Source of the DNA: a virus
Virus record (IMG/VR): IMGVR_UViG_3300002835_000015
Span: 1 to 64,000 of that record
Length of the DNA: 64,000 nt
Strand: one strand, 5' to 3'
Made by a program: the position numbers and the translations under genes. Within the stretch, counting starts at the first letter, position 1. Every line of letters begins with the position of its first letter. The notes beneath the pieces are model-generated. The model did not search any database and had not been told where the DNA came from. It saw only the letters and a program-made list of their open reading frames with translations. Below are positions 28,683-54,902 of the stretch, one piece after another.

Positions 28683-28691
28683 GTTATAAAC

Positions 28692-29198: not shown

Positions 29199-29205
29199 GT
29201 GACTT

Positions 29206-31294: not shown

Positions 31295-31299
31295 TTTTA

Positions 31300-31309
31300 G
31301 TGTATAACT
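31300..31309 (+). promoter_or_regulatory. Putative late promoter GTGTATAACT
   Basis: Intergenic, 35 nt before the major tail protein ATG. Confidence 0.65.
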
Positions 31310-31344
31310 AACTAGAGCTTACCATCTTAAAATAGGAGAGAATT

Positions 31345-32628
31345 ATGCCACTTTCAAATAATGCTAGAATTTTCTACGCTTGTCAGGCTGTAGCACTTGA
31401 GCCACTAAATTCTGTCACTGCTACTGGCGTGACAACACTTTCAACTGTAAATCCAACTAATTCGAATGCAAAACATAGTCAAGGTGTACAGATATTACAC
31501 GGCGTTCAGAGCGTTGGCATCAACACAACATTCAATCTAGAACAAGTCTTTGAACTCGGTCAAATCCACATTTATGAAAATATTGAAGGCGTACCCGATA
31601 TTGAAGTCACCTTAGAAAAGGTTCTTGATGGTTACCCCTTAATGTATCATGTGGCATCTACTGCTGTTCAAGCTGACAACTCGTTAACAACTCCAGCCGC
31701 TAAAGCAGCTCTTGTAGCAAGAACCAAACAGCGTTGCAATGCTATTTTAGGTATTTATTCTGATACAGTTTCTCATATTGGGGATGGTAATACAGCCACT
31801 AATGACACAGTAGAAGTTTTGATGAGTGGTATGTATATTAGTAGTATTGGATATACAATCCCTGTAGATGGCAATGCGACCGAATCTCTCACACTTGTTG
31901 GTAATCACAAGCAGTGGAATTTGACTCCAAGTAAGTTTAATCCAACTTTAGCTCGACAGTTAACTTCTGGCAATGCTCCTGCGGCTCCGTTTGAAGATGG
32001 GCCGGGTAATTTTAATAGTACAGCTTTTAGAGGCGGTGTACAAAGAAGAGAAAACGTTGCGTTAAATAAGTCTATTCTACCACAGTCAATCAACGGTGTT
32101 AGGCAGAATACTAGTCCCGGTAACGCTTGGTCAACTACACTAAATGTCACAGGCGTACCACTTGTGCATCTTCAGAATGTTAATATCAGTTGCTCTCTTA
32201 ATAGAGAAAGTGTTCAAGAACTTGGAAGAAAAGCTCCATATACTCGTTATGCCAACTTCCCAGTAGAAGTTACTTGTGAAATTGAAGCAATAACAACTTC
32301 TGGAGACTTTGTTCAAGCTTTAGAAGAAGGTCTAAAGGCCAATCCGCCGGGAGATCCTAATGGTCAATTTAATGTTGGTCAAGCAAATTATGGCAACAAT
32401 ACTAAGAATGAAAGAATTAGAATTGTTTTACATGATGGAACCATAATAGACCTTGGTAGTAAAAATAGACTATCATCTATTAATTATACTGGCGGTGACG
32501 CTGGCGGTGGTAATGCTACTGTAACTTATAGTTATAGTACATATAACTCCCTAAGTGTTCTTCATCCAAATGATCCAGCAAATGTTGCAGCAACTGATTT
32601 TGGTGGATTTTTCTATAATGGTCAATAA
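31345..32628 (+). CDS. Major tail (tube) protein
   Basis: Own promoter motif and AGGAG RBS. Internal two-fold similarity (LEQVFELGQ vs RESVQELGR). Located before the chaperones and tape measure. Confidence 0.7.
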   Translation: MPLSNNARIFYACQAVALEPLNSVTATGVTTLSTVNPTNSNAKHSQGVQILHGVQSVGINTTFNLEQVFELGQIHIYENIEGVPDIEVTLEKVLDGYPLMYHVASTAVQADNSLTTPAAKAALVARTKQRCNAILGIYSDTVSHIGDGNTATNDTVEVLMSGMYISSIGYTIPVDGNATESLTLVGNHKQWNLTPSKFNPTLARQLTSGNAPAAPFEDGPGNFNSTAFRGGVQRRENVALNKSILPQSINGVRQNTSPGNAWSTTLNVTGVPLVHLQNVNISCSLNRESVQELGRKAPYTRYANFPVEVTCEIEAITTSGDFVQALEEGLKANPPGDPNGQFNVGQANYGNNTKNERIRIVLHDGTIIDLGSKNRLSSINYTGGDAGGGNATVTYSYSTYNSLSVLHPNDPANVAATDFGGFFYNGQ

Positions 32629-32666
32629 TCAATAGTATTTATTTTTAGGATTTTTAAGGAAACAAA

Positions 32667-32720
32667 ATGAAACTCCCGCTTGTGAGAAAGCTGTATGAAG
32701 CATCATGAGCGGGAGTTTTT
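32667..32720 (+). promoter_or_regulatory. Leader ORF (13 aa) overlapping a hairpin that encloses the next start codon; terminator/attenuator-like
   Basis: AAACTCCCGCT (32670-32680) and AGCGGGAGTTT (32708-32718) form a perfect inverted repeat ending in a T-run. A uORF at 32667-32708 has an AAGGA RBS. Confidence 0.6.
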
Positions 32721-33726
32721 CGTTTCTATGATAAGGTCTGGCAAAGTATTCATAAGTCATAAGGATATAGATTTAGAAATATACCCACTAACACTTGATC
32801 AATCTTTCAAATCTTGCCAAGTATATCAGAAAGCCTACGATAAAGCATATTCTGAAGAAATAATGACAGAAGAGGATATGGATCAATGGATGATGGAAAA
32901 TGAACTTTGGACACTGCACGATGATAAGAAGGAGGAAGGACTCAAAAAAGACATTGAAAGACTAAAAGTAGAAATCTACAACGCTAGAGATAATGCTATG
33001 CTAGCTAGTAATTTAAGAAAATATATACGGGCGGGCGAAGCTCAAATAACATCTCACCTAAATAAAAAGTATATATATCATCAAAATACTTGCGAAGGCA
33101 TTGCTTCTTCTGAAAGGTTAGCTTGGATAATAAAAAATACGACATACTTCAATGGTAAGCTCTATAATTTTGAAGAATTGTCGTTGCAATACGTTGTAGA
33201 TGAATGGCAGTCGCACTTTATTTCAGAAAGTAAATCTAGAGAATTAGCTAGAAATGACCCTTGGAAATCGTTATGGGTCACTAGAGAAAGTTCTGGCTTT
33301 ACACTTTTTGCAAATCCGCCAAATACCGAATTAACTTATAACCAAAAGAATATTTTAATTTGGTCACAAATGTATGATAATATTCAAGAGTCTATGGAAT
33401 GTCCAAACAAAGAAGTTATAGAAGATGACGATATGCTAGACGGTTGGTTTATTATTCAGCATAAGAAGAGAGAGAAGGACAGGGTAGAAAAAGAATTCGA
33501 AAATAGCACTAAAAACGAAAAAATTAAGAATGCACCAGAGGTATTTGTTGTTGCCAGCAAAGAAAAAGCAGAAAAAATTAATGATATGAATGACATGAAT
33601 GCTAAGATGATAAAGCACCAAAGAAAACTCGCCCTTGATCGTTATGGATCTTTAGACGAGCAAAATCTACCGGATCAAAGAAGAAACATACAGGCCATGG
33701 CTAATAATCAAAACAGAGGAAAATAG
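32695..33726 (+). CDS. Tail assembly chaperone-like protein, long paralogue
   Basis: Between the tube and tape measure genes. Its N-terminal ~160 aa align with 34085. Confidence 0.55.
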   Translation: MKHHEREFFVSMIRSGKVFISHKDIDLEIYPLTLDQSFKSCQVYQKAYDKAYSEEIMTEEDMDQWMMENELWTLHDDKKEEGLKKDIERLKVEIYNARDNAMLASNLRKYIRAGEAQITSHLNKKYIYHQNTCEGIASSERLAWIIKNTTYFNGKLYNFEELSLQYVVDEWQSHFISESKSRELARNDPWKSLWVTRESSGFTLFANPPNTELTYNQKNILIWSQMYDNIQESMECPNKEVIEDDDMLDGWFIIQHKKREKDRVEKEFENSTKNEKIKNAPEVFVVASKEKAEKINDMNDMNAKMIKHQRKLALDRYGSLDEQNLPDQRRNIQAMANNQNRGK

Positions 33727-33736
33727 GAGGATAAAT

Positions 33737-34069
33737 ATGGAACCAGACTATAAAAAGGTTAGAGAATCAAAATACAAAGCCGACTCAAAAGATAGGTTGT
33801 CCAAAATTCTTAAAAAGAAAATACAGACTACTATGATTGGTGCTTTGAGTACTTTAGAAGAAAATTTTAGTTTTTTGTGGACTAATGAATCTGGAGAACC
33901 CTTATCAAAAGATCAAGAAGTCATGAAGAGCTTATACAATAAAGTAAGGTCAGAAATACTTGACCGAGGAAATAATCAAGCAAGAAATATTGACGCAGAA
34001 TTGGCTCAATATGAAGTTGAGTGGACAAGATATCAAATGAAAATACCCGTAATCAATCCTAATAACTAA
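33737..34069 (+). CDS. Hypothetical helical protein in the tail chaperone region
   Basis: AGGAGG RBS, 110 aa. Confidence 0.65.
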   Translation: MEPDYKKVRESKYKADSKDRLSKILKKKIQTTMIGALSTLEENFSFLWTNESGEPLSKDQEVMKSLYNKVRSEILDRGNNQARNIDAELAQYEVEWTRYQMKIPVINPNN

Positions 34070-34084
34070 TAACTGGAGGAAACC

Positions 34085-34963
34085 ATGTCGCAGGATAAGG
34101 AAAAGATCGTTGATGTTAAAACTACAAGAGATGGTAAAGAAGAAACAACTAAAATAGTTGTAAAACGCCCAAGTAGTTCAGTAATTTCTCAGGCGCAAAG
34201 AGTCGGAGCCAAAGCTTGGACTGATTGCGTTCGTGATGGGATTATGACTAAAAAGGAACTAGAAAAGTTTATGAAAGAACAAGGTATTTGGGACGAAGGC
34301 AAAGACGAAGAACAAAAGAAGGTAATTCAAGAGATTGCAAATCTTGAAAGAAGTCTATATGTGAGTGGAAATGCAGGGAAAAAGCTTAAGGCTTCTGAAG
34401 GCAAAAACATTGCTATTCAGATGAGAATTAAGAGAAATGAGCTTAGAGACTTAATTGCTGAGAAAATGAGCCTTGAGCAAAATACCGCAGAATCCATTTC
34501 TGATAACGTAAGATTTGACTACCTTGTTGCTAGTTGCACTTATTATGAAAATGGTCAGAAAGTGTATAATGATCTAGATGACTATAAGGAAAGATCTGAT
34601 GATCAGATCGCTTTTAGCGCAGCTTCTAGTCTAGCATCCATGATGTATTCTGTAGATAAGGATTTTGAGGCCAAACTGCCAGAAAACAAATTCCTTAAAA
34701 TGTTCCATTTTGTGGATGATAATCTAAGCTTGGTAAATGATAAGGGCGAAACAGTAGATACAGACGGTAAGAGAATAGATAAGCAAGGATATTGGCTTAA
34801 TGATGAAGGCAAGAGAGTAGATAAAGATGGCAATGTTCTTGATGAAAATGGCAATTATGTCCCTACCGTAACATATGTAGACGACGAGGATAAAGAAGTA
34901 AAAGTAGAAGAAACAGAAAAACCCGCTAAGAAAAAGAAGTCAACAGCAACGGATAGTGAATGA
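34085..34963 (+). CDS. Tail assembly chaperone-like protein with C-terminal (D/N)xxG hairpin repeats
   Basis: GGAGG RBS, paralogue of 32695, with the repeat tract VNDKGETVDTDGKRIDKQGYWLNDEGKRVDKDGNVLDENG. Confidence 0.6.
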   Translation: MSQDKEKIVDVKTTRDGKEETTKIVVKRPSSSVISQAQRVGAKAWTDCVRDGIMTKKELEKFMKEQGIWDEGKDEEQKKVIQEIANLERSLYVSGNAGKKLKASEGKNIAIQMRIKRNELRDLIAEKMSLEQNTAESISDNVRFDYLVASCTYYENGQKVYNDLDDYKERSDDQIAFSAASSLASMMYSVDKDFEAKLPENKFLKMFHFVDDNLSLVNDKGETVDTDGKRIDKQGYWLNDEGKRVDKDGNVLDENGNYVPTVTYVDDEDKEVKVEETEKPAKKKKSTATDSE

Positions 34964-34996: not shown

Positions 34997-37900
34997 ATGT
35001 CCAAATTCGTACTGACCGCACAATTACAGCTACAAGCCCCGAATAATGTTAAGCAAGTTGTACAACAAATACAAACCCAGTTAAATGGCGTTAGTGTTAA
35101 CATACAAGTCCAGAATGCTGGACAAGCTCAAAAACAAATTCAGCAAGTAGCTCAAGCAACTAATCAAGCAACAACAGCAGCAGAACGCATGGGTAAAGCA
35201 TTTGCTCTATCTATTAGGCGTTTTGCTGCCTTTTCTATTGCCACGCGGGCGGTTGGCTTATTCACCAGTACTCTTGGTGATGCTGTTCAAGCATCCATTG
35301 ACTTTGAGAGGCAATTGATTAAAGTCTCTCAGGTCACTGGAAAAAGCATAGGTCAGCTTCGTGGACTAACTAAGCAAATTACTGATTTGTCTACTGGATT
35401 TGGTGTTGCATCTTCTGATTTACTTAATGTTTCTACAATTTTAGCACAAGCCGGTTTAAGTGCTGAAGACACATCGGCAGCATTAAGAACGTTAGCAAAA
35501 GCTGCTCTTGCCCCTAACTTTGATAGCATAACAGAAACGGCAGAAGGTGCTATTGCTATCTTAGCACAATTTGGTCAAGGCGTTGGAGCATTAGAAAAGC
35601 AGCTTGGTTCTATTAACGCTGTAGCCGGTGCATTCGCCGTAGAAGCCAGTGACTTAATTGACGTTGTTCGTAGAACGGGTGGTGTATTCAAATCTTCTGG
35701 TGGTAATCTTAATGAACTTTTAGCACTATTTACTAGCGTAAGAGCCACAACCCGAGAGAGTGCTGAAAGTATTGGTACTGGCTTACGTACAATCTTCACA
35801 CGTATCCAGCGACCAAAGACCATTGAATACTTAAAACAGTTTGGTGTTGAACTAACAGACTTAGATGGTAAGTTTGTTGGCCCATACGAAGCCATTAAAA
35901 GGCTAAGTGAGGCATTAGCTGGACTTGGCGATGGTGATGTTACATTTATTAGAATTGCTGAAGAGCTTGGTGGATTCCGACAAATTGGTAAAGTTCTTCC
36001 ACTATTACAGCAATTCTCTACTGCTCAGTCTGCGCTTAATGTCGCAATGAAAGCGGGCGATTCTTTAACTCAAGATGCTGCATCGGCACAGGCGGCACTT
36101 GCTGTTAGAATTATGAAAGTCAAAGAAGAATTTTTGGCATTAATTCGTAGTATTACTGAAACTTCTACTTTTCAGATAATGGCAAATACTGCGCTATCAT
36201 TAGCTTCAGCTTTAATCAAAATTGGAGATTCTATTAAACCACTACTACCAATGCTTGCTGCTTTAGCAACTTTTAGATTAGCTAAAGGATTGGGTGGTTT
36301 TTTTGGTGGCATGATGAGTGGTGCTGCTTCTGGACGAACTTATAATAAAGGTGGTAAAGTTCTTGGGTTTGCTAGAGGTGGTTTAGTTCCCGGTACTGGG
36401 AACGGAGATACTGTTCCTGCGATGTTAGCTCCCGGTGAATTTGTTATACGCAAAAGTAGCGTCAACAAGATGGGTGCTGGAAGACTAGCAGCGATGAATG
36501 AAAATCGATATGCGGCTGGTGGAATCACAAAAGCAAAACAAATGGGCATGTCTACGGCTGATGTTTTATCATCCTCTCGCGCTTCCATTAAATCTCCTAG
36601 ATTTTCAAGAGAATCTTCTGTTGGTATAGCCACTACTTCTTATCTACCGCAACCTGCTTCTTCTAATATTTCTATCGATAGAGATTCTGATGTTATTAAT
36701 CAAGTTATAGGAGGCGTTGGATATAGTTTATCTTCTAAATTTGGTCCAAAAAATTCTTTAGAGGCAATACAAAGTTTATTCAAGGGTAAGAAAAATTTTG
36801 CATTTGGAGCTACCATAGAGGGTGTTGGCAGAGATGAAGAATCTCAATTTGCTAATATAATTAATCAATCTATTTCAACAGCTATTGACACATCTGCAAA
36901 TAGATTCGCTACAGAGGTAATGAAAACATCACCACCCGGATCGGTGAAAAAATTATCATCTTTTTATAATACTTTAGACCAAGGTTTTCGTGGTCAATTA
37001 TTTGAAAATACTATTTCAGCATTAGCTGGCAAACCCCTATCTGGACAAGATTCAAGAAGACCATTTGACTTCACAAGAGGTATTGGCAAGTTTAGAAGTA
37101 TCTATGGTAATCTTGGCATGGATTATATAGATGCTAAAATTACAAAATCATCAGCTGGTTTAGGAACAACAGGTTTATTGACTAGTCCCGGTGAGGACGC
37201 TTTAAAATCTAAAGTCTCTGGTCAACTTGCCCTAGAAAGTTTGCCATTCATTCAATCTATTATTGGATCTGCTAAAAAAAGATATTTTGGTGGACTTATC
37301 CAAAAGTTTGCAGAAGGTGGTGAAGTATTAGAAAGAGGAACACAAAAATATTTAATCTCCGACGTTGTTAAGGGGATGAGAGAATTACAGGGCAATTCAG
37401 CATTAAGCGAGAAAGACGCTATTGCTTTATTTAACTCCAAAGATGCCCGTGGAGATTTTATTTATACTAACTTTGGTGGACCGGGAAGTGTAAAACTACC
37501 AAAGTGGATGGGAACTTATAGGCCACAATCGGCAGCTTATGGGGCATTTCAGAAAGCCCAAGCCGATAAACAAAATAGAATATCTGATGCAATGAGAAGG
37601 CAGGGCAAATCTATGCGAGATTATGAAACTCGCCGTGAATTTGCTACCGGCGGTGGAGTTGGTACTGATACCGTTCCCGCCCTATTAACTCCCGGTGAGT
37701 TTGTTGTTAATCGTAAGTCTGCACAGCGTATTGGTTATGGTTCGTTAAATAGGATGAACAAGGTTGGAAAATATGCGAATGGTGGAGTTGTTCAACACTT
37801 TGCGGCTGGATCTTCTGGTTCTGGAGTTAAAGCCCCCGGCGACTTAGCCGCTAGTGGAGCAAGAGTTACAGATGCAATAATGGGCAAATTAAGTCCTAAA

Positions 37901-40900
37901 GATGCAGCTTTAGTCAAAGATTCGATGAAAAAGAATTCTGACACATTTGATAAACTTACTAAAGAGATGCAGGACTTACTCTTTATGGAAGAAGAAGTAA
38001 CAGCTGCATATAAAGCATTAGCTAGAGCTTTAAAATCTGGAGTATCAGCAGAAGAAGCTCATCGTCAAGCATTAGCTGCCGCTGATGCGCAATTAAATGC
38101 TGGCAAAGGTGGAACAGGAATACCAGCTAGTAGTAGCGGCGTTTTAAGAGAAGCATCAATGACGGCAGAAGCAGAGGATGCAAAGGCAAGAACAAAGGTT
38201 GGACAATATAAAAGCGAAACAGGACCGTTAGGTAGAACTTTTGCTACTGAACAGGAAAAAAATGTAGCACTTCTTGAAAATAAAGCTAAAAAAGGACAAG
38301 TAACGGCAGAAGACCTTGGCAAAGGTCTAGGTGATGGTTTAAGTCAATCTCAAGCAAAAGCAATTGCCGCAACAAATGCCCAAGCAATAGCATCTCAAAA
38401 AGCTGCTCAGTCTAATATGACAGAAGCTGCCGCTTCAGATAAAGCAGCAAAAGCTGATGCAGCAGAAGCTGTAAGTAGTTCTAAAGCTTCTGGTATGGAT
38501 TTTGGCAATGTAGCAATGGGACTTTCTATGGTTAGTGGAACAATTCAGTCTATGCTGCCACCATTAGATGAAAATGCTAGCTTACTTACACAAATGTCTC
38601 ATGGTGTTCTTGGAGTTATAACAACTATAACTGGTTTAGCTTTTGCTGCATCTGCATTTGGTATTACTTTGAATGCTTCTACAGTTGCTTCTATGGCATC
38701 CACAGCGGCTAGTTTTTTGATGGGTACTGCCGGTGCCGCTGCTAGCACAGCAACATTAACATTAGCTGGTTCTGCTACATTAGCTGCTGCTGGAACTACT
38801 GGATTTGCTGCGGCAGCATTTACGGCTGCGGCAGGATTATTGACGGCGATGGCACCATTTATAGCTGCCGCCGTTGCTGTTGCTGGACCATTATTGTTAA
38901 TAGTTGGCATTGCATACGCTGTAACTAAAGCGTTTAATTTTATGATTGGTGCTTTTTATGATAAGTCTAAAGAATTAAAGAAAGCGACAGAAGAAGGTAA
39001 AGTACAAGAAGCTTCTAAATTAGCTGGACAACAATATGATTTAGAAGCTGCTAATAGCACTAGAGCTTTATATGGTACAATGGGTGCTGGTATTGGTGCA
39101 TTTTTTGGTGGTCCATTTGGAGCATTAATTGGTGCAGCTATAGGAAATCTTGGAGGAACGTTACTGGCTTATATTGCACCCGATTTTACAGAAGGTATCA
39201 ATGTTTTATTTGGTGGAAATACTAGAGCTAGTGCTGTTGCATTAGCCGCAGCCCAAGCTGGAGCAGTTAAGACTCAAAAATCCTTAGATGAAGCTCAAAA
39301 AATAGCTGCTAAAGCTATGGATGATTTTAAAAATGGAACCATATCTGCTTCTGATGCTCTAGCAAAGATTAGAGCTAAAAGTGGTGAAGCGGCATCTCAA
39401 GTGGGAAGAGCAGCTTCACTTGCAAAAGAAAATAGTAAAAATAGATCTACTGGGGCATTGAGCTATGGTCGAGAAACTATGGCCTATTTAAGTTTAGGTT
39501 ATGTTGACTCGGCAAAAGAAAGAAATGATAAGTTAAGCACTCAAAATGTAGAACAAATTAATAATGCATCCAAACAACAACAAGAAGCTTTTAATGTTGA
39601 AAGTCCTGCTAGGCAAGCTGCTATTAGATCTGGCTTAGCGAGGGGTGGCAATGCAAAAGATATCAGAACACAAGCGATGGGTAGTCTTCGAAGTCAGCGA
39701 GAAGAAGCTTTAAAAACCGCTCAATCTGCTGCAAAATCTGGAGATGATACAACTTATGATGCTGCTATAGCTCAAGCCAAGCAAATAGCTGATCAAATGG
39801 AGCAAGTAGATAAAGAAATAGAGAATATTGAGAAAGAGGTTAAGCGTCAAAAAGAATTGTATAATGCTATGAATCTTGGTTTGCGTTCTGCGGTTGCGAC
39901 TGCTACCGCATTATCAGCTAACATGAATAATTTTTCTGCCGGTCTAGAGGTTGGTGGATCAGCATTCGTAAATGATGTTGAATTTTTACAGCAAGCTATG
40001 AGTAGTTCTGCTCAAGCTATGGACCCCGCAGAAATTCAGAATGCTGTTAAGGGTGTATCAGATAATCTTAGACAGTTTGGATCTTCTGAGCAGTATATTA
40101 AGAAATTTGAAGGTAATGTTGCCGCATTTACTCAAGCTCAAGCCGGTTATAACACAGCTTTCAATAATATTAAGAAGTCAATGTCTGATGCCGATTTTAA
40201 GAATTTAAGTCCAGACGATCTAAAAAAGAAATTTGCAGAAGAATTAACTAAGGGTATGGGTCCAGATGTTTCCGAAGATGCCAAAAAGAATCTAAAATCA
40301 GTTATTGAAGGAATGGAATTAGATACCGGAGAAGTAGATAAAATACTTGCTGGAGATTTAAGCGTATTTGGAGATAAACTATCTGAATCTCAAAAGAAAA
40401 TGCTTGAAGATGTTCAGAAAATTGCTGCCGAAAGAGCAAAAGCTGAACAAGTATTAATTGACTTTACTAAGAAGAGAATTGATGCTGAAAGAAATCTAGT
40501 TCAAGCACAGCAAGAAGCTCTTGACTTGACTATGGAGGGTCGTGAAATTCAAGGTAAATATGGTGGCAAAGCCGTTACCGGACAAGAAAGAAGAAACAAC
40601 TTATTAGCCAAGTCTAATGCCGAAAGCGGTAGGCTAGGTCTAACAAATATGAGAACTGGCAGCATAGGAGAGTTAAGACAAAGAAATACTGAAATTAAGA
40701 ATAGTTTTGCCGCTATAGAAGCCAAAAGAAGTCAAAAGGGTGGAATGTCAGGAAAATCTGGCGTAGAAGCTGATGAAACTCAAAAAGACTTACAGAAAGC
40801 CTATAAGACACAAATTGATACAATAAGAGGATTAATCAAACTAGAAGAAGAGCAGCTTAAAATTACTCAAGAGAAAAACAAGCTTGAAAAAGATTCTATG

Positions 40901-41920
40901 GAGTCTTTAATCAAGGGAGATGTTGAAGATTTCTTTAAGAAACAATCTGCTGTTGGTGCTACTGCCGCTATAGCAAGCGGAGATAGTAGATTACAAAACT
41001 TTTATGGTGCTGATGCTCTTGGGATGGCATATCAAGATATTCAACGTCAACAAGATGCTGGCGTCCAAGAATTATATGGTCAACAACTCGCTGGCCCCGG
41101 CGGTTTAACAGAAGCTGCCGCTGGTTCTGCTCTATCAGCAAGAGGTGTAACTGATATGAGAGCAGCACAAGTAATGGCTGGAACAACAGCCGAAGAAGAA
41201 GCTAGTAAATCAAGGCTTCGTGAGCTAGGCGGAATGTTAGGAGAAACTGGACAAGTTGGAACAGAAATAGCAGAAATGCAAGTAAAAACATCCGTTGTTA
41301 ATTTAACAGCAGCACAAGTTACATTTGACAAAACTATGGAAAGGGGCAATGAAAAAGCTAAAGAAGCTCAAGCAATAGAAAATCAACGAGCAATGTCTAG
41401 GGGTGGCGTTGTATATGCAAGTCGTGGTATATTTGTACCCAGAGGGACTGACACTGTTCCAGCCATGTTAACACCGGGTGAATTTGTAGTTAATAGAGGC
41501 GCAGTCCAACGTGGTAATAATTTACAACTGCTACACGCAATGAATAACAATAACAGCGTAGGGGCTGTTAGCTCAGATGGTAGTGCCGTTGGTATGGCAA
41601 GAGGTGGTAGGGTTCAATACTTTTCTGAAGGTGGACAAGCTGGCGGTGGCGGATTCTTCTCTGGAATGTTTGATGGATTATCAAAGTTCGCTACCACGTT
41701 TGGTGCTGAAATATCTTCAGCCGTAGAAAAACTTAAAGGAATTAATATAAGTATTAAATTAGACTCTACAAATGTCAATGTTAACTTAAATGATGGAGGG
41801 TTATTAAAAGCCCTTACTGGCGAAGTTCAAACAAAGATATTTGAGTCTATAGAGTCACAGTTTAGAGTAGTAGAGGGTGGAAAACTAAAAAGAGATAGTA
41901 AGGTCTTAGGAAATAGATAA
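34997..41920 (+). CDS. Tail tape measure protein with internal cargo domains, 2307 aa
   Basis: N-terminal TP901-type tape measure core (FERQLIKVSQVTG...TRESAESIGTGLRTIFTRI), Ala-rich helices, a hydrophobic block at about 38495-39180, and three DTVPAxLxPGEFV modules. Confidence 0.9.
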   Translation: MSKFVLTAQLQLQAPNNVKQVVQQIQTQLNGVSVNIQVQNAGQAQKQIQQVAQATNQATTAAERMGKAFALSIRRFAAFSIATRAVGLFTSTLGDAVQASIDFERQLIKVSQVTGKSIGQLRGLTKQITDLSTGFGVASSDLLNVSTILAQAGLSAEDTSAALRTLAKAALAPNFDSITETAEGAIAILAQFGQGVGALEKQLGSINAVAGAFAVEASDLIDVVRRTGGVFKSSGGNLNELLALFTSVRATTRESAESIGTGLRTIFTRIQRPKTIEYLKQFGVELTDLDGKFVGPYEAIKRLSEALAGLGDGDVTFIRIAEELGGFRQIGKVLPLLQQFSTAQSALNVAMKAGDSLTQDAASAQAALAVRIMKVKEEFLALIRSITETSTFQIMANTALSLASALIKIGDSIKPLLPMLAALATFRLAKGLGGFFGGMMSGAASGRTYNKGGKVLGFARGGLVPGTGNGDTVPAMLAPGEFVIRKSSVNKMGAGRLAAMNENRYAAGGITKAKQMGMSTADVLSSSRASIKSPRFSRESSVGIATTSYLPQPASSNISIDRDSDVINQVIGGVGYSLSSKFGPKNSLEAIQSLFKGKKNFAFGATIEGVGRDEESQFANIINQSISTAIDTSANRFATEVMKTSPPGSVKKLSSFYNTLDQGFRGQLFENTISALAGKPLSGQDSRRPFDFTRGIGKFRSIYGNLGMDYIDAKITKSSAGLGTTGLLTSPGEDALKSKVSGQLALESLPFIQSIIGSAKKRYFGGLIQKFAEGGEVLERGTQKYLISDVVKGMRELQGNSALSEKDAIALFNSKDARGDFIYTNFGGPGSVKLPKWMGTYRPQSAAYGAFQKAQADKQNRISDAMRRQGKSMRDYETRREFATGGGVGTDTVPALLTPGEFVVNRKSAQRIGYGSLNRMNKVGKYANGGVVQHFAAGSSGSGVKAPGDLAASGARVTDAIMGKLSPKDAALVKDSMKKNSDTFDKLTKEMQDLLFMEEEVTAAYKALARALKSGVSAEEAHRQALAAADAQLNAGKGGTGIPASSSGVLREASMTAEAEDAKARTKVGQYKSETGPLGRTFATEQEKNVALLENKAKKGQVTAEDLGKGLGDGLSQSQAKAIAATNAQAIASQKAAQSNMTEAAASDKAAKADAAEAVSSSKASGMDFGNVAMGLSMVSGTIQSMLPPLDENASLLTQMSHGVLGVITTITGLAFAASAFGITLNASTVASMASTAASFLMGTAGAAASTATLTLAGSATLAAAGTTGFAAAAFTAAAGLLTAMAPFIAAAVAVAGPLLLIVGIAYAVTKAFNFMIGAFYDKSKELKKATEEGKVQEASKLAGQQYDLEAANSTRALYGTMGAGIGAFFGGPFGALIGAAIGNLGGTLLAYIAPDFTEGINVLFGGNTRASAVALAAAQAGAVKTQKSLDEAQKIAAKAMDDFKNGTISASDALAKIRAKSGEAASQVGRAASLAKENSKNRSTGALSYGRETMAYLSLGYVDSAKERNDKLSTQNVEQINNASKQQQEAFNVESPARQAAIRSGLARGGNAKDIRTQAMGSLRSQREEALKTAQSAAKSGDDTTYDAAIAQAKQIADQMEQVDKEIENIEKEVKRQKELYNAMNLGLRSAVATATALSANMNNFSAGLEVGGSAFVNDVEFLQQAMSSSAQAMDPAEIQNAVKGVSDNLRQFGSSEQYIKKFEGNVAAFTQAQAGYNTAFNNIKKSMSDADFKNLSPDDLKKKFAEELTKGMGPDVSEDAKKNLKSVIEGMELDTGEVDKILAGDLSVFGDKLSESQKKMLEDVQKIAAERAKAEQVLIDFTKKRIDAERNLVQAQQEALDLTMEGREIQGKYGGKAVTGQERRNNLLAKSNAESGRLGLTNMRTGSIGELRQRNTEIKNSFAAIEAKRSQKGGMSGKSGVEADETQKDLQKAYKTQIDTIRGLIKLEEEQLKITQEKNKLEKDSMESLIKGDVEDFFKKQSAVGATAAIASGDSRLQNFYGADALGMAYQDIQRQQDAGVQELYGQQLAGPGGLTEAAAGSALSARGVTDMRAAQVMAGTTAEEEASKSRLRELGGMLGETGQVGTEIAEMQVKTSVVNLTAAQVTFDKTMERGNEKAKEAQAIENQRAMSRGGVVYASRGIFVPRGTDTVPAMLTPGEFVVNRGAVQRGNNLQLLHAMNNNNSVGAVSSDGSAVGMARGGRVQYFSEGGQAGGGGFFSGMFDGLSKFATTFGAEISSAVEKLKGINISIKLDSTNVNVNLNDGGLLKALTGEVQTKIFESIESQFRVVEGGKLKRDSKVLGNR

Positions 41921-44900
41921 TGACTTGTTCTTCATGCGTTATAAATACTAATACTGTATTGCTTTCAGATAGTAAATTATCTGCTAAGATTTCCTCTGTT
42001 AGCAATGGTGCGTCATCAAGAATTTCATCCACATCTGCATTAAGAGAAAATGTTAGTGTATACCGAAATTTTTCAGCGAGACTATCATCTGTATGTTCTA
42101 TCGCTCCGAAAGAAAATGTAGATTTTTCTCTAAAAAAAGATCTATCTCAATCAGCTGTTGGAAATATATCATCTTACACTTCAGCACTTCTAGCTATTAA
42201 TCAAAAACTATTTGGATCTGGAAGTCTTAAGACAAAGAAACCAGACAAGTTCGCTGGATATAAACCCAGCTTTAGGGCTTCTGAAAAACTATATCCAATT
42301 CAAGATATATCTTTCAAAAGCAAACCATCAAATCAAAATATAACTGTATATAAAATTGAGAATAATATTATAAGATCTACTGCGATTTACTCTAGTATAG
42401 ATGACGGGGTTTTCACTCAAGACTATGTGGACAATGGAAAAGTTGGCTCTATTATATCAGATGATTCACAATCTTTTGGCTTTACTTATAGAGTTTTTGC
42501 TAGCGGGGATATAGAATATAAATTTGCTGTTACAACACCTCTTTCTGTCGCAAAGTTAAGTTATTTAGCAGTTAGGGCTTCAGCACCTTTCAGTAGCTAT
42601 ATCAACAAAAAGCCAGAACAGTATAGGCTATATGATATAAAGTTTGAAGACCCAAATGGAAAATTGATAATTCAATATGAAGACATTCTTATTCGCGGAG
42701 AGGGTGAGTCACAATTTACCACTTATATATCTAAACCTCTAATAAATAATTTGTTATTACCAACTTGGGACGCAAATTATCCATCAATGGATATTTCTGG
42801 ACCATATACACTAAGAACTAGTTTTGCATATGATTGTAGTTCTTCTCCATTTAATGTCAATTTTGATTCTGGATATGAACAAACATGTATAATTAATTCA
42901 AATGTTTTAAATCCAAATCCATTTATTGGTTTAAATATCTCTGCCTTAGAAATTGGCAATAGTGGCGGGGTTGGTATACAGAAAGATAATTATCTAAACT
43001 TTTTCACCCAAGTAAGATCAAAGTCTGAGCGTACTAAAAAAATAGTATTGCCTAACCAATTATTACTTACTGACTTCAATAATAAGATATATCCAGAAGC
43101 CAGCAGCGTGTGGAGAACCCCAGATGGCATTTATACAAATACCACCGATTTACAATCTAATGCATTGCTTCAAAAAGTACAAAGCACTAATGTAGATTAT
43201 GGAGATTATATTAATCTTATTTATTCTACCCCTAGTATCGATAGTGGAAGACTAGTTTTGAGATTTGGAACCAATCGGGATAGGATGAATACCTATACTG
43301 ATGGAGCATTCAACTTTGGCGGGAATAAAAGTTTTAATGATGCTATACTTTCAGAATATCAATATGAAGATTATTTTGATGTAGACTACGTTGAACTTAA
43401 AGTAATAGCTAAGAAAAATGCAAATAGTCCCGATTACCCAATAGACGTTGTAGGCTATAGTGATGATAAATTATTGTATGGCACTTCCCCAATTGGTGGA
43501 TTTTTACAGAATGGTGGTACACTAGGATTTAATGAAAACAATGTGCCAAATGTATCTGGATATAATACCTTTAACTTTGGTATGTCTAATAGCTCCCTAT
43601 CTGATCAATCCGAATACTTTAGCAATGACATATCCCCACTTGGTGATCACTATATAATTAACAACTCGGTTGTTGTAAACAGCACAAGCTTTAAAGAGTA
43701 TATAGTACCACTAGAGATTTATTCTGATCCAAGAAAGCTAGGAAATACCAGATATTCTCTTAGTCCATATTTTGAAAATTTATATGTAGACATTTGCCCA
43801 ATACCAAGCGGGGCTTCCATTGCGCATGTTAGTTTGATTTTGTACTATAAGCCCGCCAATGCTCTTTCAATGCATACTCTTGGTAGTCCATCTGATAAAA
43901 ATGCTACTAGAAAAAATATAACACTATTACCATCTTTAAGTGGAACTATTAGTAATCCTAATCTTTCTGGTGGTTCTATAGTTGGATTTACTAATCCATC
44001 TAATTTAAACACAAATTATTCAAGAAGATGGAGGGGAAACACTGGAGAAATAATAATAGGTGGTGATTTTAAGAAGATGGAATTTGATTTCTCGTTTAAT
44101 CATAAGCAAGCAAATAGTCCCTTCTTGAACACTTATATTGATTTTAATAACAAGGTTACCGATAGTAATATATACTCTGACGATGGTGCTTTGGTAGCTC
44201 AACTATCTAATGGCAATGTATCAAGCCATTTACTGTCTAATGTTGGCTGGAGATATTCTTCAGAGCAGCTATTTGGTAGCGTAAGTACTCCATATAAATC
44301 AATCAAATGGGCTAACAATATCGATGACACCTTTGATAAAGCCTTAAGATTATCTGGATCTTCAAGATATTTAAAAGTTTTTTCTACTCCATCCAACAAT
44401 TCATTTTGTATCTTTTTAAGATTTACTCCAGATTATGCAACAAGTTTTCAAACAAAGAACTTACTAGAAGTAGTTTCTCCATCAAATTTAGCCTCCCCCA
44501 AGCTAGTACTATCATATAATAGTGGATCTGATTTGAGACTTGCTACTAATAGTGCTATTATAAATGCAACATCATTTTTTAATCAAAAGTTTCCATTGTC
44601 TTTATTAATTACATATAATGACGATGGAACAAATAGATTAAAGATGTATATTAATAATTCATCAGATGTATATATATCGACACAAGTAAATAACCTTTTT
44701 GCTGGCGATGAAATAATTACTGTAGGAAATTCTATGCCTAGTACCTTCCTTGATCTTCCTATTTTCTTGCATGAATTTGGAATTTCAAAAGATAGTTGCA
44801 ATATAGTAGAGTCTAATCCAGATAGATCTAAAAATCAAATTTCTGTATCTGAATTTTTTGATTCATATAATGTTCCCGCCTCCTATATTGATGATGATAT

Positions 44901-46410
44901 ATCTCAGTGGAAATTAGGAGCTTTTAAGGTTTGTCAATTCTCACCAGATTTCGATTTTTTTACTAAAAGAATTGGTAAGGACTTTATAACATTCAACTTG
45001 AGTCATAACGGATCTGGATATTATCAAACAACAAATCTTACTTTACCAAACAATATAAATCTATCCGGGGTAGCTTATCACACTCAAATTGAAAATGACT
45101 TTTTGAGATTTGATCTATCAGATATACCACAAGTTGATCAAGATAGATTCTTTGCTATTTCTCCTAGAATATCTAAAAATTTGCCCAAGGGATATAATTT
45201 TTATGATCAAGCACTATGTGTTGATACTATCTTAGAGCATGATACATACAATAATATCATGTGGTCAAATGGAAAAGTTGGCCCCAAATTCATCGTCAGT
45301 TTATATGCTAAAACTCAAGACTCACTTGAAAGACCAAGTAAACAATTTGGACTAGTAAATAGATCAATACATCACTTAGAACCTTCTGGGTGTGTAAGGA
45401 AAATTACTAGTAAATTTACATTCGATGACATTTTAGATACGTCTGAACCTTGGGCTTCTTTTGATGTTGAGTCTTATTCAAAAGAATTTAAAGAAAAATA
45501 TTTTCTTAATGATATAAATCAGATGTTTTTACAATATGATTTGGTTTATCCTTCTGGTGAACAATTCTCATCTAAAATTAAAATTCATAGTTCTAACATA
45601 AGATCAGATAATGCAATATATTTAAGCGCAACAAAAGATGACACAATGCCTTTATATGTAAGTGGATCACCATACCAGTTTGCATTTTTAAACCTTTTTG
45701 CCCCAGAAAATGGTACATCTATTAATGGTGGATATTTTAATTTGTATGCCAATTCAAACCCACCAGTACAAATACATGAGAGCGGACTAAAACTTTTTGT
45801 TGATAGTAGTGGATATTTTGTTAATCCAGAAATCTGCAACTTGTATACTATAGCAAATGGATCTCTTGATACATCCCAACAAACATTTTCTAGCATGTTT
45901 GGATCAAGTCCAATTAATGGCTTAAATTTATTTGTTAGTGGAAAATTCATTAGAGAAGATGTGATGCCGCTTCATGCAATAGGAAGCGGCTATTATGCAG
46001 ACAATTCATTAAATTGTATGACATTTGGACCGGTGGGATCAGAATTTATAAATGAACAACTACCAATGAGGGTGCGTGGAATAAGTCAGTCTTTTAATGC
46101 CTACCCCTCTTCAGTAATGTCACTCCATACATTTAATGATCAACAGATTATTAATAATTCTAGTTCATCTTTTAATCTGTTTTTATCAGCTTTTAATGCT
46201 ACAATATTTGATACTTCCGGCAATTTACCGCTAATTACTCTAAATTATCCAATATCGGACTCATTAGCATCTAAAAGTGCCACAATCACATGGGACAGTA
46301 ATAATGTCGGTCAGGGTATAACATCTGTAGATAATGTCTATGCTTATGTTGATGCGGATGATAACATAAGAGGAGTCAATTTGGCCTGTTACGGAGACTG
46401 CAACACATGA
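41920..46410 (+). CDS. Large tail-tip/baseplate protein with a LamG-like domain and C-terminal short beta repeats
   Basis: Follows the tape measure. FCIFLRFTP...LLITYN...LKMYIN..ITVGN..LHEFGIS LamG-like pattern, then repeated [ML][NP]L[FY]xxG units. Confidence 0.55.
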   Translation: MTCSSCVINTNTVLLSDSKLSAKISSVSNGASSRISSTSALRENVSVYRNFSARLSSVCSIAPKENVDFSLKKDLSQSAVGNISSYTSALLAINQKLFGSGSLKTKKPDKFAGYKPSFRASEKLYPIQDISFKSKPSNQNITVYKIENNIIRSTAIYSSIDDGVFTQDYVDNGKVGSIISDDSQSFGFTYRVFASGDIEYKFAVTTPLSVAKLSYLAVRASAPFSSYINKKPEQYRLYDIKFEDPNGKLIIQYEDILIRGEGESQFTTYISKPLINNLLLPTWDANYPSMDISGPYTLRTSFAYDCSSSPFNVNFDSGYEQTCIINSNVLNPNPFIGLNISALEIGNSGGVGIQKDNYLNFFTQVRSKSERTKKIVLPNQLLLTDFNNKIYPEASSVWRTPDGIYTNTTDLQSNALLQKVQSTNVDYGDYINLIYSTPSIDSGRLVLRFGTNRDRMNTYTDGAFNFGGNKSFNDAILSEYQYEDYFDVDYVELKVIAKKNANSPDYPIDVVGYSDDKLLYGTSPIGGFLQNGGTLGFNENNVPNVSGYNTFNFGMSNSSLSDQSEYFSNDISPLGDHYIINNSVVVNSTSFKEYIVPLEIYSDPRKLGNTRYSLSPYFENLYVDICPIPSGASIAHVSLILYYKPANALSMHTLGSPSDKNATRKNITLLPSLSGTISNPNLSGGSIVGFTNPSNLNTNYSRRWRGNTGEIIIGGDFKKMEFDFSFNHKQANSPFLNTYIDFNNKVTDSNIYSDDGALVAQLSNGNVSSHLLSNVGWRYSSEQLFGSVSTPYKSIKWANNIDDTFDKALRLSGSSRYLKVFSTPSNNSFCIFLRFTPDYATSFQTKNLLEVVSPSNLASPKLVLSYNSGSDLRLATNSAIINATSFFNQKFPLSLLITYNDDGTNRLKMYINNSSDVYISTQVNNLFAGDEIITVGNSMPSTFLDLPIFLHEFGISKDSCNIVESNPDRSKNQISVSEFFDSYNVPASYIDDDISQWKLGAFKVCQFSPDFDFFTKRIGKDFITFNLSHNGSGYYQTTNLTLPNNINLSGVAYHTQIENDFLRFDLSDIPQVDQDRFFAISPRISKNLPKGYNFYDQALCVDTILEHDTYNNIMWSNGKVGPKFIVSLYAKTQDSLERPSKQFGLVNRSIHHLEPSGCVRKITSKFTFDDILDTSEPWASFDVESYSKEFKEKYFLNDINQMFLQYDLVYPSGEQFSSKIKIHSSNIRSDNAIYLSATKDDTMPLYVSGSPYQFAFLNLFAPENGTSINGGYFNLYANSNPPVQIHESGLKLFVDSSGYFVNPEICNLYTIANGSLDTSQQTFSSMFGSSPINGLNLFVSGKFIREDVMPLHAIGSGYYADNSLNCMTFGPVGSEFINEQLPMRVRGISQSFNAYPSSVMSLHTFNDQQIINNSSSSFNLFLSAFNATIFDTSGNLPLITLNYPISDSLASKSATITWDSNNVGQGITSVDNVYAYVDADDNIRGVNLACYGDCNT

Positions 46411-54898: not shown

Positions 54899-54902
54899 TA
54901 AA

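What the first reader, a model, noticed from the sequence alone, without database searches (positions are those of the whole stretch)
36341..41635. Tape measure as a polyprotein: three gpH-like [FY]AxGG-DTVPAxLxPGEFV modules delimit cargo domains
Seen: the module occurs three times (36341-36523, 37640-37810, 41393-41635). About ten [FYM]xxGG motifs occur, often paired (YNKGG/FARGG, YAAGG, YFGG/FAEGG at 37283-37321, FATGG, YANGG/FAAG, MSRGG, MARGG/FSEGG). They partition aa ~450-940 into two non-tape-like globular inserts of about 250 and 105 aa. Known (from memory): lambda gpH carries one related FATGG...GEFV...YATGG segment near its C-terminus, is proteolytically processed near that end, and tape measures are ejected into the host. 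Inference: the repeated motifs are processing sites and/or recombination joints that let the phage load interchangeable effector domains into the tail lumen and release them at infection, forming a modular protein-delivery system.
Basis: partly seen in the sequence, partly recalled or inferred. Interest (0 to 1): 0.8.

Follow-up and report, generated by a model that had tools for sequence, protein, structure and literature searches.

The report
Tape measure protein with swappable cargo slots
The 2307-residue tail tape measure protein of an uncultured 159-kb phage carries three copies of a lambda-gpH-like module that mark where related phages swap internal domains, including ADP-ribosyltransferases, but cutting at these modules remains untested.

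Summary
ORF 34997-41920 (+) is a TP901-type tape measure protein (TMP). The core D-T-V-P-A-x-L-x-P-G-E-F-V occurs exactly three times, at the stated coordinates. [FYM]xxGG occurs 9 times against 2.2 expected.

The module is homologous to lambda gpH 732-777. It also occurs in the TMPs of Douge (twice), JBD30, VWB and Imvubu, and in a cyanophage virion glucosaminidase.

In 121 retrieved relatives, 87 have three modules and others have up to six. Each module position has its own signature, so the copies are old paralogues.

DNA similarity to 14 related phages covers aa 1-510, stops at the end of module 1, returns only over module 2, then is nearly absent (0-1.6 of 14 loci) until about aa 1400. 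Sister TMPs with 99% identical N-termini differ by whole cassettes bounded by [FY]AxGG on both sides. Cassettes in relatives include ADP-ribosyltransferases and a Walker-A domain.

In this window, insert 1 is not interchangeable. It holds a family-wide domain with a conserved E...D...(D/E)xK pattern and an unresolved fold. Insert 2 is one of about ten or more cassette types.

"Recombination joints delimiting cargo" is well supported. "Polyprotein cleavage" is untested. I rate it a new variant of a known kind. The scan also noted this stretch in another window.

The parts
34997..41920 (+). Tape measure protein gene, 2307 aa (P0001)
   Evidence: ORF list and translation. Pfam PhageMin_Tail 6e-26. 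NCBIfam TIGR01760 tape_meas_TP901 6e-30. PHROG TMP families.
35372..35935 (+). PhageMin_Tail domain (aa 126-313), inside the highly conserved N-terminal block aa 1-446
   Evidence: The N-terminal 446 aa are mostly 62-98% identical in three-module relatives, with a few outliers at 45-49%. DNA aligns in all 14 loci.
36179..36340 (+). Hydrophobic and glycine-zipper-like stretch (GLGGFFGGMMSGAASG) just before module 1, as in lambda gpH before its module
   Evidence: Read from the sequences. The comparison with gpH is an inference.
36341..36523 (+). Module 1 (YNKGG/FARGG...DTVPAMLAPGEFV...YAAGG), aa 449-509
   Evidence: The core sits at aa ~471 in nearly all relatives.
36527..36808 (+). Variable Ser-rich linker (aa 511-604), start of hypervariable region 1
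   Evidence: Aligned in only 5-33% of relatives. No DNA similarity. pLDDT below 50.
36809..37282 (+). Conserved core domain of insert 1 (aa 605-762) with G666-x2-F-E670, F-D691-F, D712-A-K714 and K739
   Evidence: Profile A3 finds 525 representative proteins. Fold unresolved.
37283..37321 (+). Junction motif YFGGLIQKFAEGG (aa 763-775), where cassettes are inserted in relatives
   Evidence: GG-x-IQKFA-x-GG is conserved at 56-86% per residue. The P0035 insertion starts exactly after KFA.
37322..37639 (+). Variable cassette, type C2 (aa 776-881), function unknown
   Evidence: Present in 24 of 138 TMPs. Other types or none occupy the same slot. Not found in proteins under 1268 aa except a truncated copy.
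37640..37810 (+). Module 2 (FATGG...DTVPALLTPGEFV...YANGG...FAAG), aa 882-938, an island of conservation between two hypervariable regions
   Evidence: DNA aligns in 14 of 14 loci, against 0-3 on either side.
37811..38596 (+). Hypervariable region 2 (aa 939-1200), Ala/Lys/Glu/Gln-rich and probably helical
   Evidence: Aligned in only 11-43% of relatives. No DNA similarity. Composition.
38603..39178 (+). Hydrophobic and glycine-zipper segment (aa 1203-1394), candidate membrane-inserting part
   Evidence: Hydropathy peaks and an 84-residue stretch with no charged, His, Asn or Gln residues. The role is inferred from TMP literature (PMC10038345, PMC10240207).
39194..41392 (+). Long conserved, mostly helical 'ruler' part (aa 1400-2132)
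   Evidence: Protein coverage in relatives is 58-80% across this stretch. DNA coverage rises from ~2-7 of 14 loci at aa 1411-1620 to 9-13 of 14 beyond aa 1620.
41393..41635 (+). Module 3 (MSRGG...FVPRGTDTVPAMLTPGEFV...MARGG/FSEGG), aa 2133-2213
   Evidence: It lies mostly 150-170 aa from the C-terminus in three-module relatives.
41636..41917 (+). Variable C-terminal tail (aa 2214-2307), expected to dock in the tail tip
   Evidence: 22-59% identity in relatives apart from the near-identical P0002. DNA similarity in 1-4 of 14 loci. Docking is inferred from lambda, T5, JBD30 and Douge structures (PMC12617516, PMC10038345, PMC11445458, PMC13033339).

Best explanation
This is a tape measure protein built as beads on a string. 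A conserved N-terminal TP901-type domain and a long helical and hydrophobic ruler are interrupted by three old paralogous copies of the gpH-like module ([FY]AxGG - DTVPAxLxPGEFV - [FY]AxGG). The modules and the lone [FY]AxGG motifs are protein-level conserved joints. In the phage population, recombination products survive only when they break at these joints. The stretches between joints therefore behave as slots whose content is gained, lost and exchanged.

The slot between KFAxGG and module 2 holds a ~100-aa cassette of unknown function in this phage. In close relatives the same slot holds ADP-ribosyltransferase or Walker-A cassettes. Upstream of it sits a family-wide domain with an E...D...(D/E)xK pattern.

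TMPs leave the tail ahead of the DNA, so these inserts are most likely carried into the host envelope or cytoplasm at infection.

Shown: the modules, their homology to gpH, their positional orthology, the mosaic breakpoints and the enzyme cassettes in relatives. Inferred: delivery into the host, activity of the cargo, and the role of the module itself. By analogy with the JBD30 'hook' prediction, the module may be a folding or anchoring element. Release by cleavage is possible but unproven.
For: TMP identity.

Three exact core motifs and motif excess.

Homology of the module to lambda gpH, Douge gp16 with two copies, and JBD30 gp46.

Architecture in relatives: of 121 TMPs, 87 have 3 modules, 25 have 4-6 and 9 have 1-2, with module 1 fixed at aa ~471. 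Each position has its own signature across relatives.

DNA similarity profile against 14 loci: 14/14 over aa 1-510, 0-3/14 over aa 511-870, 14/14 over module 2, and 0-1.6/14 over aa 961-1410.

Of 110 pairs with at least 93% identical N-termini, only 57 share a cassette type. Cassette type changes 64 times on the N-terminal tree, against ~88 in five shuffled trials printed and a minimum of ~29.

P0033 and P0035 are identical up to ...IQKFA. P0035 then has a 171-aa Walker-A insertion ending ...AYA, after which both resume at xGGEVV. P0036/P0079 and P0053/P0114 break at the trailing [FY]AxGG of module 1 and at module 2.

ADP-ribosyltransferase (PF03496) occupies the slot in P0003 (32 bits, cut-off 23.4) and lies between two modules in P0041. 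STS and ExE motifs are visible in the ART-type cassettes of P0053 and P0079.

In cultured phages the module sits next to ejected enzyme domains: VWB TMP (module 790-838, SLT 959-1041), S-SCSM1 gp159 (module 605-644, glucosaminidase 697-816) and Imvubu TMP (Rpf-like domain between a weak and a strong module).

Synonymous-codon identity in the modules (~0.5) equals that of the N-terminal block, so conservation acts on the protein.
Against: Nothing shows that this phage's own inserts are enzymes. There is no Pfam, PDB-sequence, Foldseek, VIA or Atlas match.

Insert 1's core is conserved, not exchangeable.

Hypervariability also affects regions that are plainly not cargo: the helical region after module 2 and the C-terminal tail. 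Fast evolution of host-contacting parts could therefore explain part of the pattern without any cargo.

Some relatives lack module 3.

The tree used for counting cassette changes is a FastTree of very similar sequences and may be poorly resolved.

The set of relatives was collected with a query spanning aa 440-945, which biases it towards proteins that carry the modules.
Confidence: 0.55

Rival explanations
1. Polyprotein reading. The [FY]AxGG motifs or modules are proteolytic processing sites. The TMP would be cut into about four pieces (N-domain; module 1 + core + cassette; module 2 + membrane part; module 3 + plug), which would free the cargo at assembly or infection.
For: Lambda gpH is cut in its Gly-rich region just upstream of its module, to gpH* of about residues 1-710, with the module at 732-784 (PMC12617516). 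T5 pb2 is cut after R1127 between the hydrophobic part and its enzyme domain (PMC10038345). The JBD30 authors speculate on a cut right after the module (PMC11445458). TMP processing, even loss of an internal segment, is described as common (PMC1796659). Every cassette carries its own C-terminal [FY]AxGG, as expected for a site that must travel with the cargo. A cytoplasmic enzyme such as an ADP-ribosyltransferase would plausibly need release.
Against: There is no direct evidence. The exact lambda site and its protease are unknown (PMC12617516). No JAB or C39 double-glycine peptidase was found in the 159-kb genome. No relative among 11 inspected loci has the gene split at a module. T5's cleavage region is not detectably homologous to the module. 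The strict conservation of about 13 residues is more than a simple cleavage site needs.
Confidence: 0.25
2. Purely structural reading. The modules are periodic hooks that fold, trimerise or grip the tube or hub lumen and set the register of a very long TMP. The segments between them vary because they contact host envelope proteins, superinfection-exclusion proteins or defence sensors. They would not be delivered effectors.
For: The JBD30 module is predicted as a hook of two helices and a beta-hairpin and is proposed to anchor in the baseplate (PMC11445458). Module number rises with TMP length, from 3 in ~2300 aa to 5-7 in 2900-3800 aa. Conservation acts on the protein. Non-cargo regions are also hypervariable. 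HK97 TMP is known to depend on host inner-membrane and periplasmic proteins (cited in PMC13033339).
Against: This does not explain bona fide enzyme cassettes (ADP-ribosyltransferase, Walker-A) inserted cleanly in the slot. It also does not explain the recurrent pairing of the module with lytic enzyme domains in cultured phages.
Confidence: 0.15
3. Simple internal duplication. The three modules are leftovers of unit duplications that lengthened the tail and have no function as boundaries.
For: TMPs are known to evolve by unit duplication and loss (my own recollection of Belcaid et al. 2011, not checked here). Some giants in the family carry a duplicated core domain.
Against: The three copies share only 38 nt at 84% identity at DNA level and have position-specific signatures kept across relatives. 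Mosaic breakpoints coincide with them.
Confidence: 0.05

Closest known systems
Lambda gpH C-terminal region and gpH to gpH* processing
   Same: It has the same module (FATGG - GEFV - YATGG), preceded by a hydrophobic Gly-rich stretch and followed by a ~70-110-aa tail that docks in the tip. Homology was shown here.
   Different: Lambda has one module and no insert. Here there are three, two of them internal, flanking variable domains. The whole TIGR01541 model does not match. Cleavage is known in lambda and unknown here.
Actinobacteriophage TMPs with embedded peptidoglycan-hydrolase motifs (TM4 gp17, Piuri and Hatfull 2006, PMC1796659; also Douge gp16, Imvubu gp21, VWB gp47)
   Same: Enzymatic domains sit inside a TMP. 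The gpH-like module is present, twice in Douge, and lies next to the enzyme domain.
   Different: The cargo there is cell-wall hydrolases. Here and in relatives the cargo is a domain with an E-D-(D/E)xK pattern, ADP-ribosyltransferases, Walker-A domains and unknown cassettes. The module had not been described as the boundary element in the papers I read.
T5 pb2 (TMP cut into pb2* and the muralytic pb2C) and the JBD30 'hook' model
   Same: The logic is the same: a membrane-inserting part, then a boundary, then an ejected enzyme domain. The JBD30 hook is the same module.
   Different: The T5 boundary region shows no detectable homology to the module. T5 and JBD30 each have a single boundary.
Polymorphic toxins with a conserved pre-toxin motif (MuF-toxin fusions of phage heads, e.g. 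MuF-VIP2 in Microbacterium phages, PMC7302621; Rhs and CdiA, from my own knowledge)
   Same: A conserved delivery part is joined to exchangeable toxin-like domains that swap at a short conserved motif. An ADP-ribosyltransferase is among the payloads.
   Different: The carrier is the tail tape measure. The cassettes are internal rather than C-terminal and can be stacked in tandem. No immunity gene was examined. This window's own cassette has no recognised toxin family.
T4 Alt and other injected virion proteins
   Same: An ADP-ribosyltransferase is carried in the virion and delivered with the DNA (in relatives).
   Different: Alt is a separate capsid-packaged protein with a prohead-protease-cleaved targeting sequence (my own knowledge). 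Here the enzyme is part of the TMP chain in the tail lumen.

Membership tests
TP901-type phage tail tape measure protein (PF10145 / TIGR01760) | N-terminal PhageMin_Tail / tape_meas_TP901 domain above the curated cut-off | tested here: met
   PF10145: 92 bits against 33.2. TIGR01760: 104 bits against 28.8.
TP901-type phage tail tape measure protein (PF10145 / TIGR01760) | Very long, largely helical protein with an internal hydrophobic segment, encoded between small tail genes and large distal-tail genes | tested here: met
   2307 aa with a hydrophobic block at aa 1203-1394. Synteny is conserved in relatives: several ORFs of roughly 280-450 aa upstream and a >1000-aa ORF downstream. The neighbours themselves have no family match.
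Lambda-family TMP C-terminal domain (TIGR01541 tape_meas_lam_C) | Match to the family model | tested here: not met
   There was no hit at E<=1 for P0001, while lambda's own C-terminus scores 231 bits. Only the ~45-aa module is shared.
gpH-like module (no Pfam or NCBIfam entry found) | [FY]AxGG, then [DE]..P..L..GEF[VI]..[KR]..[AS], then [FY]AxGG, with significant profile similarity to gpH 732-777 | tested here: met
   hhalign probability 89%, E 2.6e-6. PDB profile hits to Douge, lambda and JBD30 TMPs. No Pfam family at E<=10.
PD-(D/E)xK nuclease superfamily (for the core of insert 1) | Conserved acidic residue in a helix, then D on a strand, then (D/E)xK on the next strand, in this order | tested here: met
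   Among rows with a residue at the column, E670 and D691 are invariant. Position 712 is D 82% / E 9% of all rows, and K714 is 83%, with T in a few rows. Spacing is 21 and 21 residues. The model puts E670 in a helix and D691 and D712 on short strands.
PD-(D/E)xK nuclease superfamily (for the core of insert 1) | alpha-beta-beta-beta-alpha-beta restriction-endonuclease-like fold | tested here: inconclusive
   AlphaFold2 gave pLDDT 44 and 66, pTM 0.24 and 0.38. Foldseek found no match at E<=0.001, VIA best Z was 4.4 and 6.1 on helical rows, and Atlas TM was at most 0.31.
PD-(D/E)xK nuclease superfamily (for the core of insert 1) | Sequence-profile match to a known nuclease family, or nuclease activity | tested here: inconclusive
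   No Pfam hit in 20 members at E<=1 and no PDB profile hit. Activity is not testable here.
Polymorphic-toxin-like modular delivery protein | Conserved carrier with exchangeable domains that swap at a short conserved motif | tested here: met
   Cassette swaps between TMPs with 95-99.6% identical N-termini, with breakpoints at [FY]AxGG or the modules.
Polymorphic-toxin-like modular delivery protein | Payload of a recognised toxin or effector family in this protein itself | tested here: not met
   No family match for aa 511-881 of the window's TMP. ADP-ribosyltransferase is found only in relatives.
Polymorphic-toxin-like modular delivery protein | Cognate immunity gene next to the toxin | not tested
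   Neighbouring genes were not examined for immunity functions. This may not apply to a lytic phage.
Viral polyprotein | Cleavage at defined sites by a viral or host protease, or by autoproteolysis | not testable with these tools
   There is only analogy to lambda and T5. No JAB or C39 peptidase was found in the genome, which does not exclude other proteases.

The most novel reading that the evidence does not exclude
A widespread family of ~90-166-kb uncultured phages uses the tail tape measure as a programmable injection cable. The gpH-like module and its [FY]AxGG half-sites would be both the recombination seams and the self- or tail-catalysed cleavage sites that release stacked effector cassettes (an E-D-(D/E)xK nuclease-like domain, ADP-ribosyltransferases, P-loop enzymes) into the host ahead of the DNA. 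The same reading would explain the long-unknown gpH to gpH* cleavage of lambda.
Probability: 0.15. Interest if true: 0.85.

Novelty: new variant of a known kind. Interest (0 to 1): 0.62.

Why it matters
TMPs are usually treated as rulers and channel formers, with a few carrying cell-wall hydrolase motifs. Here a short conserved module, shared with lambda gpH but with no match in Pfam or NCBIfam, marks the seams of exchangeable internal domains in a large family of environmental phages. The exchanged domains include cytoplasm-acting enzymes such as ADP-ribosyltransferases.

If the cargo is delivered, this is a tail-lumen route for injecting effectors, complementary to capsid-packaged proteins such as T4 Alt and MuF-toxin fusions. 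It would also offer a natural design rule for inserting payloads into phage tails. In addition, it gives a concrete, testable candidate element for the unexplained processing of lambda gpH.

Tried and rejected
1. T5 pb2. The cleavage site FVPR|AEGG looks like module 3's FVPRGTD, but profile comparison found nothing (probability 0.3%), so I treat the likeness as anecdotal.

2. Pfam, NCBIfam and PDB sequence searches of the modules and inserts returned nothing beyond the TMP N-domain.

3. Two AlphaFold2 runs on the inserts gave low confidence: 20 sequences at pLDDT 44 and 46 sequences at pLDDT 66. Foldseek-PDB, two VIA wide searches, the Atlas shape search and the Atlas feature search gave no credible fold. 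A nuclease fold is therefore neither shown nor excluded.

4. I searched the phage for JAB (PF14464) and C39 (PF03412) 'after-GG' peptidases and found none.

5. I looked for relatives with the TMP gene split at a module. None was found in 11 loci. One locus (L026) has a 1515-aa ORF with two modules followed by other ORFs, but this is not clearly a split.

6. The window's C2 cassette was not found in proteins shorter than 1268 aa, apart from a truncated copy of the same TMP.

7. I tested whether module conservation is a DNA-level signal or recent gene conversion. Synonymous identity in the modules (~0.5) equals that in the N-terminal block, so that idea is rejected.

8. Literature searches for the motif ('GEFV' with tape measure) found no paper. 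Searches for TMP with ADP-ribosyltransferase or polymorphic toxin found no description of TMP-embedded ARTs. This is absence in the held library only.

9. Single-linkage clustering of cassettes at 50% coverage lumped types together, so I replaced it with a 70% mutual-coverage rule. Type 'C3' is an artefact that arises where the strict regex misses module 2.

Full report
**What is there.** The window is part of a 158,798-bp virus record rated complete. ORF 34997-41920 (+) encodes a 2307-aa protein. It carries the PhageMin_Tail domain (PF10145, 6e-26, aa 126-313). It also matches TIGR01760 tape_meas_TP901 (6e-30) and several PHROG tape-measure families. It has a strongly hydrophobic, glycine-zipper-like block at aa 1203-1394. 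It is a tape measure protein (TMP). Nine neighbouring structural ORFs have no PHROG match, and their only Pfam hits are weak, sub-threshold ones in a single ORF (34085-34963), so the phage is very divergent.

- [FYM]xxGG occurs 9 times against 2.2 expected, and no shuffle out of 2000 reached 9. [FY]AxGG occurs 5 times against 0.2.
- The YFGG/FAEGG pair is at aa 763-775 (nt 37283-37321).
- At DNA level the three copies share only 38 nt at 84% identity, so they are old duplicates.

**The module is widespread and unnamed.**
- A PDB sequence search finds it in the TMPs of mycobacteriophage Douge (two copies, 964-1011 and 1411-1460 of 1699), Pseudomonas phage JBD30 (1007-1070 of 1158) and lambda.
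- In none of these structures is the module resolved. Only the last 30-40 residues of each TMP are seen (PMC13033339, PMC11445458, PMC12617516).
- The JBD30 authors predict residues 1022-1066 to be a hook of two helices and a beta-hairpin. They speculate that it anchors the TMP in the baseplate after a cut at residue 1066, by analogy with T5 pb2* (PMC11445458, PMC10038345).
- Among cultured phages it also occurs in TMPs of Gordonia, Mycobacterium, Rhodococcus, Shewanella, Acinetobacter, Nitrincola, Stenotrophomonas and Nodularia phages, and in T4-like cyanophage virion proteins.
- No Pfam family (E<=10) and no NCBIfam family (E<=1) matches the module.

**Relatives.**
- A search with aa 440-945 returned 2257 proteins at E<=0.001. 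The listed ones are TMPs of about 1600-3800 aa, most from contigs of tens of kb to 166 kb.
- Of 121 proteins in hand, 87 carry three strict cores, 25 carry 4-6 and 9 carry 1-2. Core 1 lies at aa ~471 in nearly all. Core 2 lies anywhere from aa 745 to 1133. The last core lies mostly 150-170 aa from the end in three-module relatives.
- Each position has its own signature across relatives, so the three are orthologous position by position.
- In larger relatives the number of modules rises to 5-7, and the core domain of insert 1 can be duplicated.

**Mosaic structure.**
- The N-terminal 446 aa are mostly 62-98% identical in three-module relatives, with a few outliers at 45-49%. The stretch between modules 1 and 2 is 199-593 aa long. 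It ranges from 95% identity to no detectable similarity even where the N-terminus is about 90% identical.
- Nucleotide alignments to 14 related loci cover aa 1-510 in all 14. They fall to 0-3 of 14 over aa 511-870, return to 14 of 14 over module 2 (aa 871-930), and fall to 0-1.6 of 14 over aa 961-1410. They then recover through the ruler and module 3, and fall again in the last ~110 aa.
- Among 110 pairs with at least 93% identical N-termini, only 57 share the cassette type.
- On an N-terminal tree the cassette type changes 64 times. The five shuffled trials printed gave 86-90, and about 29 is the minimum possible.
- P0033 and P0035 (99.6% identical N-termini) are identical up to ...GGIIQKFA. 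P0035 then has a 171-aa insertion with a Walker-A motif (GPAGSGKTT) that ends ...AYA. Both then resume at xGGEVV. The inserted unit is therefore bounded by [FY]AxGG on both sides and sits in tandem with the window-type cassette.
- P0036 and P0079 diverge right after the trailing [FY]AxGG of module 1, re-converge at the start of module 2, and diverge again after its trailing YAKGG. P0053 and P0114 show the same block pattern.
- Synonymous-codon identity inside the modules (~0.5) equals that of the N-terminal block, so the modules are conserved as protein, not as a DNA signal.

**What sits in the slots.** Insert 1 of this window is not a free cassette.
- After a variable Ser-rich linker (aa 511-604) it contains a domain (aa ~605-762) found in 525 representative proteins of a 1.84-billion-protein library. 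Nearly all are TMP-sized, with the domain at position ~600-900. The short hits look like contig-end fragments.
- Its conserved residues are G666-x2-F-E670, F-D691-F, D712-A-K714 and K739, followed by GG-x-IQKFA-x-GG.
- The order and spacing fit a PD-(D/E)xK nuclease signature. Another first-stage note on this genome made the same suggestion, which is not independent evidence.
- I could not confirm the fold. Two AlphaFold2 models were of low confidence, and Foldseek, VIA, Atlas, Pfam and PDB profile searches gave nothing credible.

The second insert (aa 776-881) is one of many cassette types in the slot between KFAxGG and module 2. Among 138 TMPs the counts were as follows:

| Slot content | TMPs | Typical length |
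|---|---|---|
| No cassette | 42 | - |
| Window type (C2) | 24 | ~95 aa |
| Type C1 | 25 | ~146 aa |
| Type C4 (ADP-ribosyltransferase) | 6 | ~230 aa |
| Further types and singletons | remainder | varied |

- The C4 assignment rests on PF03496 in P0003 at aa 878-1023 (32 bits, cut-off 23.4). STS and ExE motifs are visible in the ART-type cassettes of P0053 and P0079.
- Two further types carry a Walker-A motif.
- P0041 carries an ADP-ribosyltransferase domain between two full modules.
- The window-type cassette was not found in shorter proteins.

**The pattern in cultured phages.** The module sits beside ejected enzyme domains.
- Streptomyces phage VWB gp47 is a TMP annotated as 'endolysin'. 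Its module is at 790-838 and its SLT domain at 959-1041.
- Cyanophage S-SCSM1 virion protein gp159 has the module at 605-644 and a glucosaminidase domain at 697-816.
- Mycobacteriophage Imvubu TMP has an Rpf-like domain at 1271-1344, between a weak module at 991-1049 and a strong one at 1750-1817.

This links the finding to the known class of TMPs with embedded cell-wall hydrolase motifs (PMC1796659).

**Mechanism.** I consider the following shown:
- the modules are real and homologous to gpH;
- they are positionally orthologous;
- recombinant boundaries coincide with them;
- the bounded slots hold exchangeable domains, including recognised enzymes, in relatives.

I infer that, because TMPs are expelled ahead of the DNA (PMC10038345, PMC12617516), the inserts reach the host envelope or cytoplasm. 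I also infer that the module acts as a folding or anchoring joint that must be kept intact, which is why only recombinants that break at it survive.

The polyprotein idea rests on analogy. Lambda is cut just upstream of its module, by an unknown protease at an unmapped site (PMC12617516). T5 is cut between its membrane part and its enzyme domain (PMC10038345). I found no JAB or C39 peptidase in the genome and no naturally split genes. The T5 site is not homologous to the module. Cleavage therefore remains open, and I give it about 25%.

**Comparison and novelty.** The closest known systems are:
- lambda gpH and its processing;
- actinobacteriophage TMPs with embedded hydrolase motifs;
- T5 pb2;
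- polymorphic toxins with a conserved pre-toxin motif, which are the closest in logic, including MuF-VIP2 fusions of phage heads (PMC7302621).

Four things are different here. The module is repeated and acts as the seam. The slots are internal and stackable. The payload range includes ADP-ribosyltransferases, Walker-A domains and a conserved domain with a nuclease-like pattern. The carrier is the tape measure. I found no paper describing this in the held library. I rate it a new variant of a known kind.

**Caveats.**
- The relative set was gathered with a query that contains two modules.
- The functions of this window's own inserts are unknown.
- Host, tail type and any processing are unknown.

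Noticed in passing
window 37811-38596 (aa 939-1200) and 41636-41917 (aa 2214-2307): Two further hypervariable stretches of the TMP start right after modules 2 and 3. These are an Ala/Lys/Glu-rich helical spacer and the C-terminal tail. Neither shows DNA similarity to most relatives, although the flanks are conserved.
   Followed up: partly
window 26994-34963 and 41920-55316: Nine structural-region ORFs around the TMP have no PHROG match, and the only Pfam hits are weak, sub-threshold ones in ORF 34085-34963. The gene order is nevertheless conserved in relatives: several ORFs of roughly 280-450 aa upstream and a >1000-aa ORF downstream.
   Followed up: partly
window 34085-34963: The 292-aa ORF just upstream of the TMP has a weak DUF3659 hit (5e-5, below cut-off). 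By position it may be a tail assembly chaperone. No frameshift site was looked for.
   Followed up: no
L033 (phage T5 pb2, residues ~1120-1150) against window 41432-41490: T5's mapped cleavage site FVPR|AEGG...GEHGTEVV resembles module 3's FVPRGTD...GEFVV by eye. Profile comparison gives no support.
   Followed up: yes
relatives P0035, P0039, P0117 (cassette types C7 and C10): A 150-280-aa cassette with a Walker-A motif (GPAGSGKTT) is inserted in the TMP slot. No Pfam family was detected.
   Followed up: partly
relatives P0142, P0148, P0171, P0188 (3192-5555 aa): Giant TMPs carry two copies of the conserved core domain and up to 5555 residues. This implies extremely long tails or large non-ruler content.
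   Followed up: no
loci L010, L017, L020, L031: Full-length relatives (2565-2837 aa) lack module 3 altogether, so the C-terminal module is not universal in the family.
   Followed up: partly
L035 (Streptomyces phage VWB gp47) and related SF1/SF3 records: Proteins annotated 'endolysin' are in fact tape measure proteins with an embedded SLT domain (PhageMin_Tail at 116-317). The annotation is probably wrong.
   Followed up: yes
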